Assembly: GCA_963727505.1 (NCBI GenBank)
Contig: CAVSGP010000005.1
Coordinates: 1 to 64,000 of the forward strand
Reading direction: 5' to 3'
Source of the DNA: an uncultured Trueperaceae bacterium
GTDB lineage: Bacteria; Deinococcota; Deinococci; Deinococcales; Trueperaceae
Length of the DNA stretch: 64,000 bases
Of this stretch, positions 24,001 to 30,000 are shown one piece after another; the first letter of the stretch is position 1, and each line of letters begins with the position of its first letter. The position numbers are program-made.

Positions 24001-27000
24001 CCGCCGGGAGGCGTGGCGGCCGCCAGCGGGTCGAGCAGCGCCTGGTCGATGCCCATGTAATAGAGCTTGGGATGGGTGTCCTTCTCGGGCCGGCGCACCG
24101 CGACGTTCTCGCGCGCCACCAGCCGCGCCACCTTGCTGTCGGGCTGGTGGATGTCGCCGACCAGGATGGCCTCGGCCGGGCAGACCGAGACGCAGGCCGG
24201 CTCGAGCCCTTCGTCGATACGATGGCTGCACATGTTGCACTTCTCGGCGCTGCCGTCCTCGGGGTTGATGAAGATGGCGTCGTAGGGGCAGGCGGCGATG
24301 CACGCCTTGCAGCCGATGCAGACGTCCTTGTCGAAATCGACGATGCCGTCGGGGCGCTGGTACATGGCCGTGACCGGGCAGGCGGCCACGCATGGTGGGT
24401 CCTCGCACTGGTTGCAGCGCGTCACCTGGAAGCTGCGGCGCGTGTTGGGGAAGGCGCCCTTCTCGACGTGCTTGACGAAGGTGCGGGTGACGCCGACCGG
24501 GACCTCGTTCTCGCTCTTGCAGGCGACGGTGCAGGCGTGGCAGCCCACGCAACGGGTGTGGTCGATGACCTTGATCCACTGCGGGTCTTGACGGCGGTAG
24601 AGGTCGTCGAGCAGGGCGGCGCCCCGCTCGGCCGGTGCCGGGTTGGTCATGGAGCTTGATTTTAAATCAAAAATTGATGAGACACAATTCGGCGCCCCCA
24701 GGCGCCAGGTCGACCGCGCGCTGCAAGCCGCTCCGACGCGTGCCCGTGGGTGTCCGTCCGGCTATCATGCGGCTGATGAAGGACGCACGCGATCACCCTG
24801 CGCCGCCCCCGTCGGTGCTTGGAGGAGCATGAGCGAGGCGCCCGCTCCGCTCCTCGGGCGCCTCGCGACCCTGGAGGAGGAACTGGGCGGTGTCCTCGGC
24901 GTCGCGGCGCATCGGCTGGAGGCGGTCGGGACCGAGGGGGTTGAGACCGAGGAGGCCGAGAGCGGGGACGCCGCTGCCCCGGGTGCGGTCTCGTACCGCT
25001 CGGATGAGCGTTTCCCCGCCGCCTCCACCATCAAGGTGTTCGTCCTGCAGGCTCTACTCGAGCGCGTCGCCGCCGGTGGCATCGGTCTGGACGACGAGAT
25101 CGTGCTGCGAGGGATCGACCGGGTGACCGGCTCGGGTGTCCTGAAGGCGTTATCCGCGGGCCGCGCCTACACCGTGCGCGACCTGGCGACTCTGATGATC
25201 GTCGTCAGCGACAACACCGCGACCAACCTGCTGATCGAGCGCCTGGGCATGGACGCGGTCAACGGCGCCACCGCGGCGCACGGCTGGCGCGAGACGCACC
25301 TGGCGGGCCTGCTGCAACGGCCCGACCTGCGCGCTGCGGGGGACCCGCGGGTCTCGACCGCCTCCCCGCGCGACCTCGCTGACGCCTTCGCGCGGCTGTG
25401 GCGCGGGGAGCTGCTACCCCCCGACCTGAGCGAGATCGCCCGGGGTATCTACCTCCGGCAGCAGGTCACCGACCTGCTCGGGCGCTTCCTTCCCTACGAT
25501 GCCTACCGCACCGAGACCGGCGAGGACCGCTTCGTCATCGCCTCCAAGTACGGGGCGTTGCGCGGGGTGCGCAACGACGCCGGGGTGATCGACACCGGCC
25601 GGTCGCGCTACGTGGTCGCCGTCATGACGCGGGGTTGCCCGGACGAGCGCTTCCACCCCGACAACCTCGGTGCGCTGGTGGTGGCGAAGGTGTCGCGAGC
25701 ACTCTACGAGCACTTCGGATCGCACGCGGCGTGAGCGCAACGGGCGGCGCCCCTCGAAGAGCGCTCCGATAACGCTCCAATAACGCCGCCCTCCCTACAG
25801 TGCGGCCTCGGAAGGACGAAGTGTCCACCGGAGCGCCCGGGGGAGGGGTACGCATGTCGAAGTTCCGCCGTCTGTTCGTCGTCGCCGCCTTGCTGTTCGT
25901 CGCCGCCTGTTCGTCCACGAAGGCTCCCACCGCGCCAGGCGGGGGCGGGGGCGGCGGCGGGACCGGGACGGGCCCCATCCCGTTGAGCTTCACGCCGGAC
26001 GCCGCGCACGCGGCCAGCGCGACCGTCGACGCAGCCGGCGGGACGGTCACGGCCACCGGGGCCGATGGCGCCGCTTACACCCTCAAGGTGCCAGCGGGCG
26101 CCGTGGTAGGCCCGACGGACCTCACCGTGACGCCACTCGAGAACGTGGCGGTGGACGGTTCCAGCGCGGCGTGGCAGGTCGGCGTGCGGCTCGAGCCGAC
26201 CGGCACGCAGTTCCTCGAGGCCGTGACTCTCGAGGTCCATCCGCCGGCCAGCGCTCCGGTGAAGGCGGCCGTCACGCTGGTCAACGCCAACGGAACGGTG
26301 TTCGTGCCGGAGAGCTCGTCGACCGCGGGCGCGACCTTCAGCGCCAGCCTCTGGCACTTCAGCGACTACCTCGTTGCGCCCGTCACCGACTCGCTCCTGA
26401 ACCGCGCCGTCGACGCCGCGATCGGAGCCGTCCACGATCCGGCGCTGAGCACGGACGTCCAGGACCTGATCGGCCTCTGGGGTGCGGCCCGATCCCAGCA
26501 GCTCACCCAGGCGGTGGACCGCCTCGACCAGGCGATCGCCGCGGCCATCGCGTCCTTCGAAGACGCCCAGCAGGGCAACGCGAGTCCGACGGCTGGCACG
26601 CTCTACGACGGCCTCGCCGCCTATCACGACGCCGTCTCGACGGGACGGACGAACGACGTGAGCACGCTTCAGCAGGACGTTCAGCACGTCTTCGGCACCT
26701 GGATGCGTGTGATCGACCTTGCCTATCTCCAGACCGGGCCGGACTTCGCCAAGCTGCAGTCCCTGGTGGGCCCGCTGGCGCAGGCGATCGCCATCGCGGC
26801 GGCCAATCCGTTCATCCTGCAAGGCGGCTCCGTCATCGACCCCACATCGGAGGCCCAGAAGGTCATCGATACCCAGCTCGCTCTCGCGGACGCCGATTGC
26901 GACAACGCCCGCTTCAGCAGCGGCGCGATGGAGCTCCAGGACCTCATCGGAGGCGTCCAGCTCCTGGGGCTCGCATCGCCCAGCGTCCAGCAGCTCCAGG

Positions 27001-30000
27001 ACGACGCCGCGAGCTGCGTGCCGCCGGTGGTGACCGGCTTCGAGGCTCCGGCCAACACCGCCTTCGCCTTGGCCGATTACGTTCCCAACGGCAAGGCAGG
27101 GACCTCACAGCAGGACCACCAGCCCGCCAACGCGATCCAGGGTGCGATCAACTTGAGCATCCACGCCGCCGCCAGCACCTCGGAATCGGATGGAGTCATG
27201 GGCCTTACGGGCGTGCTCGGCGGGAGCAACGATGCGACGCTCTCCCTGGACGGCACCGCTGATGCGGCCGTAGCGGCCACGGGCGACAGTTCGTGTGGCG
27301 CCGGGCAGTACGGCAGCGGTGGCTCGGATCAGATCTTCGTCAACTACGACCACGCTCGGGGCCCCGCGCTCGTGAAGGTGACGTGGACCGGGTCGACCAC
27401 CTCGTCGGGCCAGGCCAACGCCAGCCTGCTGGGCAGGGTGGAGGCGACCAACGTCTGGGGGACGTCACCGAGTGGCTCGGTCGACGTGCACGTCAGCGGC
27501 CTGGGGTGGAGCCCGGCGGTTCCCGATCCGAAGGGGGCTGTCGCGGTCGTGATCGACGGCCGGGTCGGTGCGGGCGCGTGCTCGAGCCCGGCGCAGACCG
27601 GCTCGGCCTCCGTGAGTGGCCAGCTGACGATCCAGGTCCTCCCGGATCCGCAGCCGTGAGGTCGCTGCGAGGCTGCTGCGGACCTCCCGGCGTGCGGCTT
27701 GCCGACTGCCCGCCTACCGCGTCCGGCCCGTGTTCTCGTTGTCGTGCCGGAACTCGGGCCAGGACGACGGGGCCGGCCCGAAGGCGCCGCCGTTGACGGC
27801 ATAGAGGTTGTCGTCCCAGGACCCCACGTAGACCGTGCCGTGGTCCCCCACCGCCGGCGACGAGGTGATGTAGTACGCCGTCTTCACCTTCCACGCCAGC
27901 GTGCCATCGGGGTGCAGCGCGTACAGGTGCTCGTCGTCCGAGCCGACGTAGACGGTGCCGTCGCGGCCGACGGCCGGCGACGAGGTGACGTAGTCGCCGG
28001 TCTTGAAGGCCCAGGCCAGGCTGCCGTCGGGCTTCAGCGCGACCAGGTCGTGGCTCTCGGAGCCGACGTAGACGGTGCCGTCGGGCGCGATGGCGGGCGA
28101 GGAGTAGACGATGTCGCCGGTGTCGTAGCTCCAGCGCAGCTTCCCGCCCGGGCCGAAGGCGTACACGGAGCCGCCGCTCGAGCCCACCACCACCTCGCCG
28201 TTCGGCCCCACTGCCGGGGAGGACAGCACCTCGCCGTCGGTCTGCGCCTTCCAGGCGAGCGTCCCGTCGGGGTGCACGGCGTAGAGGAAGGTGTCGTTCG
28301 ACCCCACGTAGATGGTGCCGTCGGGCCCCACCGCCGGGGAGGAGTAGACGATGTCGCCGGTCGCGAAGCGCCACGCCACGGTGCCGTCGGGGTGCACGGC
28401 GTAGAGGTTGCCGTCGCCCGACCCCAGGTAGACGGTGCCGTCGGGCGCGATGGCCGGGGAGGAGTTGACGGCGTCGCCGGCGCGCGTCTTCCAGGCGAGC
28501 GTGCCGTCGGGGTGGAAGGCGTAGAGGTTGCCGTCGCCCGACCCCACGTAGATCGTGCCGTCGGGCGCGATGGCGGGCGAGGAGTAGACGATGCCGCCGG
28601 TCAGCGCCTTCCACTTCAGGCTGCCGCCGGGCGTGAAGGCGTAGAGCCGGCCGTCGTCGGACCCGACGTAGACGGTGCCGTCGGGCGCGATCGCCGGCGA
28701 AGACTGGATCCAGTCGCCGGTCGGGTAGCGCCACGCCACGCTGCCGGGAGCGGAGCCCTGGCCGCGCGCCGCAGGCGCGGCCGCCGCCAGCGTCACGAGG
28801 GCGAGTGTGAGCAGGAGCGGGCGCGTCATCGGCCGTAGCCTACGGCGCCGCGCCCCGGTTGGGGTGAGCGTGCCCGGCGCAGCGTTCCTCGCTCAGCCCG
28901 GGGGCGCGGGTCTGCGCGTCGCTCAGGTGGAGGGGGGAGAGGCCTCCTCACTCCGGTCCGTGGCGGGGGGCGGGGCCGGCGACAGCGCGGAGATCTGCGC
29001 CCGGTCCTCGGCCGAGAACGCCAGCTCGGCGGCGGCGAGGGAGGGCTCGAGCTGTTCCACGTTGCGGGCGCCGATGATCGGCGCCGTCACACCGGGGTGG
29101 CTCCGGACCCACGCGACCGCCAGCGTCGCGGGGTGCACGTCCCGTTCGCGGGCGTAGGCGGTGAGCGCGTCGGCGACGCGGAGGTAGCCTTCGCCGCCGT
29201 AGCGCGAGGCGTACATGCGGTTGTCGATGAGGCGGCCGTCTTCGGGCGCGCGATCCACGCCGTACTTGCCGGTCAGCAGCCCGCCGCCGAGCGGGCTGTA
29301 GGGAACCACCGCGAGGCGTTCGGCCTGCGCCATCGGCAGGATCTCCACCTCGACCTGGCGCTTGGCGAGGCTGTACATCGGCTGCACCACCTCGAAGCGG
29401 GCCAGCTGCTCGCGCGCGCTCACGCCAAGCGCTTTCTCGATCTGCCAGGCGGCCCAGTTGCTGACGGCGGGGTAGAGGATGAGGCCGCGCTGCACGAGGT
29501 GGTCGAGCGCGCGCACGGACTCGTCGATCGGCGTAAGGGGATCGAACTGGTGGACGTAGTAGACGTCGATCCGGTCGGTCTGCAGGCGCCGTAGGCTCGC
29601 TTCGACGGCCCGGACCAGGTTGCGCCGGGAGAGCCCGCGATCGTTGGGGTCGTCGCTCATGCGGCCGAAGCCCTTGCTGGCGATGACCAACTCGTCGCGA
29701 TGCTCGCGCATGAGCTCGCCCAGGATCGACTCGGAACGGCCGCGGCCGTAGACGTTGGCGGTGTCGAAGAAGTTGATGCCGGCGTCGAGGGAGCGTCGGA
29801 ACAGGCGTGCGGACTCGTCCTCGTCGGCGGGGGCGCCGAAGGACATGGTGCCGAAGCACAGCGAGGAGACCTGTACGCCGGTGCGACCGAGGGTGCGGAG
29901 TTCCATGGTGCCCCTTTCGTACTCGGGGTGGCGTGCGAGCGTGGGCGGAGCTGGCAGCGCTCAGCATAGCGGCTGGGTGGCGCTGGGCGTCCGGTTTGGC

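What a model noticed while it worked through the whole genome (the two positions that open the first line are those of the whole stretch)
25767..27659. 11-bp direct-repeat activator site (SARP-like) in place of -35 at five surface-lipoprotein promoters
A TAACG direct repeat with an 11-bp period ends exactly 10 nt before the -10 box of five unlinked genes for exported proteins: four large lipoproteins (g01422, g01490, g01689, g02680) and g00595. The layout is that of SARP/OmpR-type activators and defines a cell-surface regulon distinct from the pilus word already listed.
Evidence so far: 5 intergenic copies against 0.05 expected; matrix scores 30-34 bits, next hit 21; same spacing to the -10 hexamer in 5 of 5. 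1-4 sites in each of 9 genus relatives, reversed control 0; they precede orthologues or other lipoprotein ORFs, also in G017 and G013. The genome holds six BTAD proteins, one with AfsR as best hit.
(Added by a program. Inside this text positions count along the whole contig: contig position 1 is position 1 of the stretch shown here. "Call 12" and the like, gene names such as g00115 and contig names such as C1 are that model's own, and its searches are not shown. The text may have been shortened before it was handed on; [...] marks where a part breaks off. The agent that wrote the report below was given it as the finding of a first reader that could run no searches.)

Follow-up and report, generated by a model that had tools for sequence, protein, structure and literature searches.

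The report
SARP activator box, surface-protein regulon
A short DNA repeat, spaced one helical turn apart, sits in front of five scattered cell-surface protein genes in a Trueperaceae bacterium; it is most likely the docking site of one large ATP-switch activator of the Streptomyces antibiotic-regulator type, and comparing many such activators suggests their targets can be read from their DNA-binding helix.

Summary
Confirmed. TAACG-N6-TAACG-N10-TANNNT occurs five times in G000 (0.08 expected), each time intergenic and before an exported-protein gene. It tops an unbiased scan of the genome and occurs in 148 of 299 Deinococcota genomes. Its two T's fall at -38 and -27, the register of the AfsR box. 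Across relatives, 37 of 118 large SARP-STAND-TPR genes are directly followed by their own 11-bp repeat plus -10 box, and the repeated word tracks the recognition helix. Three of G000's four large SARPs have their own local word (GAACG, TGACG, AGACG). The fourth, C4:216753, has none. Its helix is nearest to eight TAACG-adjacent proteins, and its closest relative outside the genus is followed by a TAACG-type box. It probably acts in trans on the five genes. An OmpR-type regulator fits worse. Binding, activation and the signal are inferred, not shown. The mechanism is known from Streptomyces, and this scan noted similar SARP boxes on other DNA. New here are a dispersed surface-protein regulon in Deinococcota and a draft helix-to-word code.

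The parts
25766..25785 (+). Activator box: two TAACG repeats at 11-bp period (25770-25774 and 25781-25785). By analogy to the afs box the 22-bp site spans 25768-25789 (-40 to -19); the upstream repeat lies where the -35 hexamer would be.
   Evidence: 19 of these 20 positions are invariant in two orthologous promoters while the flanks diverge; the repeat is also kept before a third orthologue of 43% protein identity.
25786..25795 (+). 10-nt spacer of fixed length and free sequence
   Evidence: Gap 10 in 29 of 29 genus sites when gaps of 6-14 were allowed; base counts near background.
25796..25801 (+). -10 hexamer TACAGT (sigma-70 type); start site predicted near 25808, not shown
   Evidence: T, A and the final T are kept in orthologues.
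25842..25846 (+). Shine-Dalgarno GGAGG
   Evidence: conserved in the orthologue alignment.
25854..27659 (+). Target gene: 601-aa lipoprotein (lipobox Cys19), no Pfam or NCBIfam family, weak ZU5-like lead; probably monocistronic, since the next gene is convergent
   Evidence: Full-length orthologues in 3 of 9 genus relatives, all with the repeat.
24829..25734 (+). Context only: upstream serine-hydrolase gene of class A beta-lactamase fold, far below family cut-offs; its stop bounds the promoter
27714..28829 (-). Context only: convergent secreted PQQ-type beta-propeller gene; no box in front of it

Best explanation
The repeat is a class-II-like activator site for a large SARP/AfsR-type regulator, most likely G000 C4:216753-220082 (1109 aa; winged helix + BTAD + STAND ATPase + TPR sensor), which lies outside the window. 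Shown: the site, its geometry, its conservation, the exported nature of the targets, the regulator's domains and fold, and the link between SARP genes, their helix and adjacent repeat words. Inferred from AfsR: two wHTH domains bind head-to-tail on one DNA face with helix 3 in the major groove (Gln66 and Arg70 at the places of AfsR Thr88 and Arg92). They stand in for the missing -35 contact and recruit housekeeping RNA polymerase through the sigma region 4 and beta-flap contacts, hence the fixed 10-nt gap. Inferred and least sure: a cytoplasmic signal sensed by the TPR arm triggers ADP/ATP exchange and switches on all five unlinked surface genes together, remodelling the envelope for adhesion or substrate capture. 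The regulator appears to have lost its ancestral next-door target and acts in trans.
For: (1) Register. afsS has a 20-bp spacer after a -35 at -38..-33, and AfsR needs T-38 and T-27. With our -10 at -12..-7 the two T's fall at -38 and -27. (2) 37 of 118 SARP genes with a closed 3' end are followed within 450 nt by an 11-bp-period repeat plus TANNNT; ten other periods give 2-14 of 118. (3) In a blind GTDB scan, SARP genes lie in 7 of 120 loci; in three the site directly follows the stop, and in two of these the TAA of the repeat is the stop codon. (4) In five genus-g19 genomes, 9 of 10 sites lie within about 2 kb of a hit to the SARP profile, five of them about 100 bp from a divergent gene; the four 2-kb hits are weak (E about 1e-4). 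(5) Elimination: the G000 SARPs at C2, C9 and C5 have local GAACG (1 site), TGACG (3) and AGACG (2) boxes; C4 has none behind it. (6) Helix similarity predicts the adjacent word in 38 of 48 proteins, and in 21 of 48 when homologues above 45% identity are barred (shuffles: mean 8, max 16-18; four control windows 7, 7, 15, 9). The eight helices nearest to C4's are all TAACG-labelled. (7) Two sister-pair switches: a TAACG and a GAACG protein in each of two clades, with matching changes at helix positions 62 and 66. (8) The closest relative outside the genus (G015, 52%) is followed 18 nt after its stop by TAACG-N6-TCACG-N10-TACCCT. (9) Orthologues at 62-94% in 8 of 9 genus relatives; the helix is identical in the 7 aligned. 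(10) The model (pLDDT 97) matches AfsR and EmbR only, at E 5e-11 to 3e-7.
Against: No binding or expression data. The C4 gene is not next to any site; the nearest is 4.8 kb upstream beyond the hut genes. None of 7 genus orthologues is followed by a box, and none of 6 metagenome loci holds one. G001 (70% complete) has 2 sites but no close orthologue. The code is degenerate: a second helix type, with Val or Arg at position 66, also sits divergent to TAACG sites (L065, L067, genus g19), and one site lies 235 bp from an unlike SARP (L237). Word labels were curated by hand, some from divergent positions, and kin share labels. The out-of-sample check (4 of 4 with the expected helix type against 10 of 29 overall) is about two independent pairs, and in one case the site lies inside a shortened reading frame. 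The tree is the quick one, and the two sister groupings have SH-aLRT 93 and 82. A position-by-position association test was not completed. The signal is unknown.
Confidence: 0.72

Rival explanations
1. The site is a SARP-type box, but another G000 protein reads it, alone or in addition: the C2:58640 SARP by cross-recognition (GAACG and TAACG differ by one base), or one of the three receiver-wHTH-BTAD proteins (C4:613237, C10:39596, C3:38940).
For: A helix type close to that of C2 sits divergent to TAACG sites in L065 and L067. The Chloroflexi sister of C2 has TAACG before the same kind of FAD-oxidoreductase gene. Receiver-bearing SARPs exist in G000.
Against: C2 and two genus orthologues keep G at the first base of their own box. 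Two unrelated proteins with a similar helix change also have GAACG. The helices of the receiver proteins look unlike any TAACG-adjacent helix (by eye). C4 would be left without any target.
Confidence: 0.12
2. An OmpR/PhoB-type response regulator binds the repeats as part of an envelope-stress two-component regulon; the best candidate is C4:507078.
For: OmpR-family proteins bind side by side on direct repeats much as SARPs do. G000 has nine. The operon of C4:507078 is preceded by TCACG-N6-TAACG-N9-TAGCCT, a one-mismatch copy.
Against: That box scores below 14 bits on the matrix and has gap 9. In 3 of the 5 relatives shown its last G is C, so its conserved core differs. An OmpR gene lies in 1 of 60 Deinococcales site loci and 4 of 120 blind loci, about what nine genes per genome give by chance (my estimate). 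It does not explain the 37 of 118 SARP-adjacent boxes.
Confidence: 0.06
3. The five promoters are not a live common regulon: each gene arrived with its own SARP cassette and box, the local regulators were lost, and the boxes are relics or weak constitutive promoters.
For: Cassettes of SARP + box + exported gene are common in relatives. Target genes are patchy in the genus.
Against: The boxes are kept exactly before orthologues down to 43% protein identity while the flanks drift. Non-homologous genes in the genus share the spacer letters between the repeats, which are variable outside the genus. A matching regulator with an invariant helix is kept in the genus.
Confidence: 0.06
4. The word is a promoter element read by an alternative sigma factor, or a repressor operator, and not an activator site.
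For: The upstream repeat occupies the -35 position at a fixed distance, as a sigma element would.
Against: The 20-nt spacer from a hexamer at -38..-33 is too long for an unaided sigma-70 promoter (17-18 bp typical). A doubled word at one helical turn is not a sigma feature (established knowledge). The word changes with the adjacent SARP. No consensus -35 is there to be repressed.
Confidence: 0.04

Closest known systems
AfsR and the afs box of afsS, Streptomyces coelicolor (PDB 8HVR, 8K60, 8JKE; PMC11301090; bioRxiv 10.1101/2023.09.04.556155)
   Same: Two 11-bp direct repeats over the -35 position with the key T at -38 and -27. Regulator of about 1000-1100 aa with wHTH-BTAD-NTPase-TPR. Profile match E 4e-28, fold match E 5e-11.
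   Different: Different word (TAACG against the TTCAGC-type box) and 21-22% identity. The NTPase hits AAA_16, not NB-ARC; the F/Y-HD latch is His-Glu in the genus orthologues. Deinococcota, not Actinomycetota. Targets are five unlinked envelope genes, not a neighbouring small regulator or an antibiotic cluster.
'Ectopic' AfsR-like regulators of Actinomycetota with unknown targets (bioRxiv 10.64898/2026.09.02.748808)
   Same: Large SARP-NLR proteins outside biosynthetic clusters (58% of 3,200 in that survey) whose regulons are open.
   Different: That survey covers Actinomycetota and the NB-ARC clade only, and in the sections I read it predicts no binding words.
EmbR of Mycobacterium tuberculosis (PDB 2FEZ, 2FF4)
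   Same: Same wHTH-BTAD module; it controls cell-envelope genes (recalled, from no call).
   Different: Small protein with an FHA domain; no STAND or TPR part.
SARP-LAL regulators (PimR, SanG, PolR; PMC10972967)
   Same: Large SARP with an ATPase of the LAL type; SanG and PolR sites have two repeats over -35.
   Different: Cluster-situated activators of antibiotic genes. No LuxR domain is found here and TPRs are present; the two sources read disagree on whether SARP-LALs carry a LuxR HTH.
OmpR/PhoB-family response regulators
   Same: Side-by-side binding of wHTH domains to direct repeats near -35.
   Different: Small phosphorylated proteins paired with a kinase; no genomic association with these sites was found.
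Recognition code from local regulation in the LacI family (PMC2978694; title and start of abstract only)
   Same: The same logic: pair each regulator with the site next to it and read rules from the helix.
   Different: A different fold and site type; no such code for SARPs turned up in my searches.

Membership tests
SARP-type activator site (afs-box geometry) | Direct repeats with an 11-bp period | tested here: met
   5 copies at period 11, 0-2 at other periods.
SARP-type activator site (afs-box geometry) | Upstream repeat overlaps the -35 position at a fixed distance from the -10 box | tested here: met
   Gap 10 in 29 of 29 genus sites; T at -38 and -27 as in afsS if the hexamer is -12..-7. 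Start site not mapped.
SARP-type activator site (afs-box geometry) | Bound by a SARP protein and required for activation | not testable with these tools
   Genomic association only.
Large SARP (regulator C4:216753) | N-terminal OmpR-type winged helix | tested here: met
   DBD profile hits AfsR and EmbR first, E 2e-8; model and fold search. Pfam Trans_reg_C does not hit this protein.
Large SARP (regulator C4:216753) | BTAD directly after the DNA-binding domain | tested here: met
   PF03704 E 6.5e-11.
Large SARP (regulator C4:216753) | Central STAND NTPase with Walker A and B, and C-terminal TPRs | tested here: met
   AAA_16 E 7e-13, TPR_12 E 2.5e-15; Walker A, Walker B and the GxP motif conserved in 12 aligned homologues.
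AfsR subfamily in the strict sense | NTPase of the NB-ARC clade | tested here: not met
   No NB-ARC hit at E 0.01-0.05; AAA_16 instead.
AfsR subfamily in the strict sense | F/Y-HD activation latch | tested here: inconclusive
   At the candidate place His is kept; the next residue is Glu in 8 of 8 genus orthologues and Asp in 4 of 4 outer relatives. The position was picked by eye, not aligned to AfsR.
AfsR subfamily in the strict sense | Actinomycete host; controls afsS or secondary metabolism | tested here: not met
   Deinococcota; targets are exported proteins.
SARP-LAL | C-terminal LuxR domain in place of TPRs (as defined in the 2026 preprint) | tested here: not met
   TPR hits, no LuxR hit.
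OmpR/PhoB regulon | Cognate response regulator associated with the sites or carrying the box at its own operon | tested here: not met
   1 of 60 loci; the one near-miss box has a different conserved core and gap.
STAND switch | ADP/ATP exchange controlled by a ligand on the sensor arm | not testable with these tools
   Inferred from AfsR.

The most novel reading that the evidence does not exclude
Large SARP-STAND-TPR proteins form a widespread layer of one-component, NLR-like sensors outside Actinomycetota. Each reads an 11-bp direct repeat of the form NNACG whose first bases are set by a few residues of helix 3, so regulons can be assigned from sequence alone. In this genus one such sensor has left its cassette and become a trans-acting master switch for the outer surface: an NLR-type receptor whose output is envelope remodelling, not cell death or antibiotics. 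TAACG is the phylum's most reused word, with up to 19 sites per genome in family f4.
Probability: 0.45. Interest if true: 0.8.

Novelty: new variant of a known kind. Interest (0 to 1): 0.62.

Why it matters
Two papers read here state that SARPs are exclusive to actinomycetes (PMC10972967, PMC7040171), and a 2026 preprint names the targets of AfsR-like regulators as largely unknown. This finding gives a named regulator, five defined sites and three sibling regulator-word pairs in one genome. They are built-in specificity controls for a simple binding experiment. The same word occurs in culturable, genetically tractable relatives (named Meiothermus and Oceanithermus records), so the model can be tested there. 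If the helix-to-word rules hold, targets of thousands of unstudied STAND activators become predictable, and the paralogues offer orthogonal activator-promoter pairs. The activation mechanism itself is not new.

Tried and rejected
RNA evidence: no RNA holder was listed for window 25000-28000; this is no evidence either way, and no reads were laid. A third repeat upstream: 1 exact and 3 near matches in 68 sites, background level; the box has two repeats. Further G000 members: two one-mismatch candidates with a -10-like box (C4:506553, C6:15564) score under 14 bits and have gap 9; not counted. A fifth large SARP: tblastn with 107 SARP N-termini finds only a 39-residue remnant at C2:236954 that lacks the recognition helix. 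A local box behind C4:216753: none before the S8-peptidase lipoprotein gene that follows it. Single-sequence PDB search gave TPR hits and EmbR at E 0.08 only; the profile and fold searches were needed. Families for the targets: none for the window protein; 29 of 50 relatives' targets have no Pfam hit. The careful tree did not finish; the quick tree is used. A position-by-position test of helix residue against base was not completed, so residue-level rules are by eye. Literature searches listed no paper on this word, on SARP sites in Deinococcota or on a SARP recognition code. I read at most the top 20 listings of each; the library lacks most subscription journals, and the bioRxiv supplements are closed (the 2026 preprint's Supplementary Data 3-6 could bear on binding motifs). 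No complex prediction was run.
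Full report
OBSERVATION. The window holds TAACG at 25770 and 25781, then ten bases, then TACAGT at 25796-25801, a GGAGG and the ATG (25854) of a 601-aa lipoprotein gene. The genome has exactly five TAACG-N6-TAACG copies against 0.08 expected, and other periods from 6 to 24 give 0-2. All five are intergenic, have TANNNT after ten bases and precede a ribosome site and an exported-protein gene by 19-46 nt of predicted leader. A matrix from 68 sites of fetched loci scores them 38-43 bits, the next hit 16.9. A scan with no word given in advance ranks this word and gap first.

CONSERVATION. The strict pattern is in 27 of 41 genomes of the order with one reversed-control hit. 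With gap 9 or 10 it is in 148 of 299 genomes of the phylum, with 23 control hits in 20 genomes by my count of the table (the tally includes G281, flagged unpublished, 3 sites). In A+T-rich genomes the bare repeat without the -10 is no more frequent than its control, so the -10 is part of the signal. With gaps 6-14 allowed, all 29 genus sites have gap 10; elsewhere gap 9 is the main variant. The window gene has full-length orthologues in 3 of 9 genus relatives. All three keep the repeat, even at 43% protein identity, where the -10 reads CAGGAT.

TARGETS. In G000: lipoproteins of 601, 419, 571 and 874 aa, and a 170-aa signal-peptide protein whose Atlas neighbours include outer-membrane beta-barrels (0.96, 168 shared features). 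A genus orthologue of the 571-aa protein has a beta-helix hit and the 874-aa protein a glucodextranase-B (Ig-like) hit. Over 83 unique sites in the loci examined, 72 had a downstream ORF called and 52 of these look exported (36 lipoproteins) by a simple hydrophobicity and lipobox rule, against 213 of 1146 (16 lipoproteins) for G000 ORFs. The set includes orthologues, 14 GTDB loci that I picked by taxon or SARP neighbour, and some wrong start calls. Families, where found, are S8 and astacin proteases, PKD, Ig-like, NHL, beta-helix and ZU5 domains (50 proteins scanned). In family f4 (genera probably Thermus and the Meiothermus group; inferred) only 17 of 39 look exported; glycosyltransferase-like and ATPase-like starts also appear (by eye). 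The word is phylum-wide; the surface regulon is lineage-specific.

WHICH KIND OF REGULATOR. In 60 loci fetched around Deinococcales sites, 11 hold a SARP gene: five end 6-194 nt upstream of the site on the same strand, one is divergent; none of the 12 loci from the genus itself holds one. An OmpR-type gene lies in one of the 60. In a blind scan of GTDB, most of the 120 loci are probably chance matches, yet seven hold a SARP gene. In three the site directly follows the stop: a Burkholderiaceae, a Chloroflexia and a Trueperaceae record. Turning the question round, I fetched 100 regions, mainly the top of 150 listed BTAD matches out of 337. Of 124 distinct SARP genes in all loci then held, 118 had a closed 3' end, and 37 of these are followed by an 11-bp-period repeat with a TANNNT; other periods give 2-14. 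That set includes the loci first chosen for having a TAACG site; 8 of the 37 come from them. In five g19 genomes chosen for having sites, 9 of 10 sites lie within about 2 kb of a hit to the SARP profile, five of them about 100 bp from a divergent gene; the other four hits are weak. The geometry agrees with AfsR in detail. The afs box is two 11-bp repeats at -40 to -19; its -35 hexamer at -38..-33 is 20 bp from the -10, and T-38 and T-27 are needed for binding (bioRxiv 10.1101/2023.09.04.556155, passages and section 6; PMC11301090, passages and section 9). Numbering our -10 as -12..-7 puts the two T's at -38 and -27.

WHICH PROTEIN. G000 has four large SARP-STAND-TPR genes, three short receiver-wHTH-BTAD genes, a few other wHTH proteins and a 39-residue remnant. 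Three of the four large ones are followed by their own repeat: GAACG behind C2:58640, TGACG twice behind C9:201935 (a third 11 kb away) and AGACG behind C5:202283 (a second 2.7 kb on). C4:216753 has none; a TAACG site lies 4.8 kb upstream. I labelled 48 SARPs by hand with the word next to them. Similarity over nine outward helix-3 positions predicts the word in 38 of 48, in 29 with homologues over 60% barred and in 21 with those over 45% barred. Shuffled labels give about 8 (maximum 16-18), and four control windows elsewhere in the domain give 7, 7, 15 and 9. The eight helices nearest to that of C4 all belong to TAACG-adjacent proteins of 22-45% identity. On a quick tree of the BTAD part, TAACG occurs in four separate groups. 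In two of them a TAACG protein with Asn62/Gln66 has a GAACG relative with Thr62 and Lys or Arg at 66. One such pair, Chloroflexia L121 and G000 C2, even precedes the same kind of FAD-oxidoreductase gene (the G000 gene judged by eye). The DBD profile aligns without gaps to AfsR helix 3, placing Gln66 on Thr88 and Arg70 on Arg92. Both structure papers name these two as base contacts; they differ on Arg87. The closest relative of C4 outside the genus (G015, 52%) is followed by TAACG-N6-TCACG-N10-TACCCT and has a perfect site 8 kb upstream. Orthologues occur in 8 of 9 genus relatives; the helix is identical in the seven aligned and in five of six metagenome copies. The protein has BTAD, AAA_16 and TPR hits and intact Walker motifs, and its N-terminal model (pLDDT 97) matches only AfsR and EmbR at E below 0.001.

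AGAINST. Nothing here shows binding or transcription. G001 has sites but no close orthologue (70% complete). A second helix type with Val or Arg at 66 also faces TAACG sites, and one site lies near an unlike SARP, so the code is many-to-one and C2 might cross-read. The out-of-sample check in g56 and g57 (4 of 4 site-adjacent SARPs of the expected type, 10 of 29 overall) rests on about two independent pairs, and in one the site lies inside a shortened frame. One OmpR operon has a one-mismatch box, but with gap 9 and a different conserved core in relatives. A formal residue-by-base test was not completed.

MECHANISM. Most likely (0.72): two C4:216753 molecules bind the repeats side by side and recruit housekeeping polymerase to promoters that have a -10 but no -35, as AfsR does. 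The STAND-TPR part keeps the protein off until a signal arrives (AfsR preprint 10.64898/2026.09.02.748808: abstract, first third of the Results, sections 8 and 9). The ancestral unit seems to be SARP gene, box, exported gene, with the box often built on the regulator's stop codon. In this genus the regulator kept its helix, lost the adjacent target and serves 2-5 scattered genes. What the proteins do is a guess: adhesion or capture of substrates at the outer surface. The signal is unknown.

COMPARISON AND NOVELTY. It works like AfsR and passes the domain tests for a large SARP. It is not an AfsR in the strict sense: no NB-ARC hit, His-Glu at the candidate latch, another phylum, no antibiotic cluster. 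PMC10972967 and PMC7040171 (passages) call SARPs exclusive to actinomycetes; PMC8213781 (two passages) notes BTAD genes beside eCIS operons in several phyla without a site. Eight searches (listings only) showed no description of this word, of SARP sites in Deinococcota or of a SARP code; the library is incomplete. Earlier notes of this scan report SARP-like boxes in Acidimicrobiia, Chloroflexota, Alphaproteobacteria and others, and a different 11-bp box pair in this genome; I saw them after forming my reading and did not check them. Look-ups for this regulator and for a helix code returned nothing.

VERDICT. A real regulatory element; a new variant of a known kind. Site real: about 0.98. SARP-type reader: about 0.9. 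C4:216753 given that: about 0.8. Interest 0.62: the mechanism is textbook, but the regulator assignment, the trans-acting surface regulon and the draft recognition code make an open question directly testable.

Noticed in passing
G000 C4:563183(+), C9:737513(+), C9:738398(+), C9:145534(-), C5:236587(+), C9:601055(-); outside the window: A further family, GTAAG repeated at 11 bp, 10-11 nt before TANNNT, six copies. One lies just behind a short wHTH gene at C4:562496 in an A+T-richer island.
   Followed up: partly
G000 C2:61916, C9:204377, C9:204642, C9:215153(-), C5:198737(-), C5:195994(-): Local boxes of the other three large SARPs (GAACG, TGACG, AGACG); the GAACG box precedes an FAD-oxidoreductase-like gene.
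   Followed up: yes
L106, L164, L061, L231, L240, L247, L255, L379, L421 and G000 C9:204377: The box often overlaps or abuts the stop codon of the SARP gene (TAA in TAACG, TGA in TGACG), which ties regulator and site into one unit.
   Followed up: partly
G000 C4:506553 and C9:495001: Probable autoregulatory direct repeats of two OmpR-type operons: a TTCAC/CTAAC-like pair before a haem-binding protein + regulator + kinase operon, and an ATGAC pair before another regulator.
   Followed up: partly
G000 C2:236954-237070: 39-residue remnant of a SARP N-terminus (77% to a relative's protein) between two XRE-like HTH starts, ahead of an HTH-STAND gene.
   Followed up: partly
G000 C3:38940 and C10:39596: Two near-duplicate receiver-wHTH-BTAD genes, each followed by the start of the same hisA-like gene; a true duplication or an assembly artefact.
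   Followed up: no
L341, L342, L344, L345 (genus g19): A conserved 275-aa secreted protein with a TAACG box, divergent from a roughly 600-aa SARP-like gene with a second helix type; a compact test system in a probably culturable genus.
   Followed up: partly
L008, L054, L120, L411, L416, L419, L427, L430 (family f4): TAACG boxes before a DegT-type aminotransferase and glycosyltransferase-like genes: the word may control surface-glycan synthesis in this group.
   Followed up: no
window 24829-25734 (+): Serine hydrolase of class A beta-lactamase fold, 89 bits against a cut-off of 200; no signal peptide evident.
   Followed up: no
window 18000-24650 (-): Molybdopterin oxidoreductase operon: 4Fe-4S/NrfD-like fusion, catalytic subunit, TorD-like chaperone, TauE-like exporter (judged by eye).
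   Followed up: no
L440 (G004:C15:88745-89155): A protein sharing residues 40-175 of the window lipoprotein (29%) lies just behind a SARP with a TGACG box: the same surface domain under another word.
   Followed up: no
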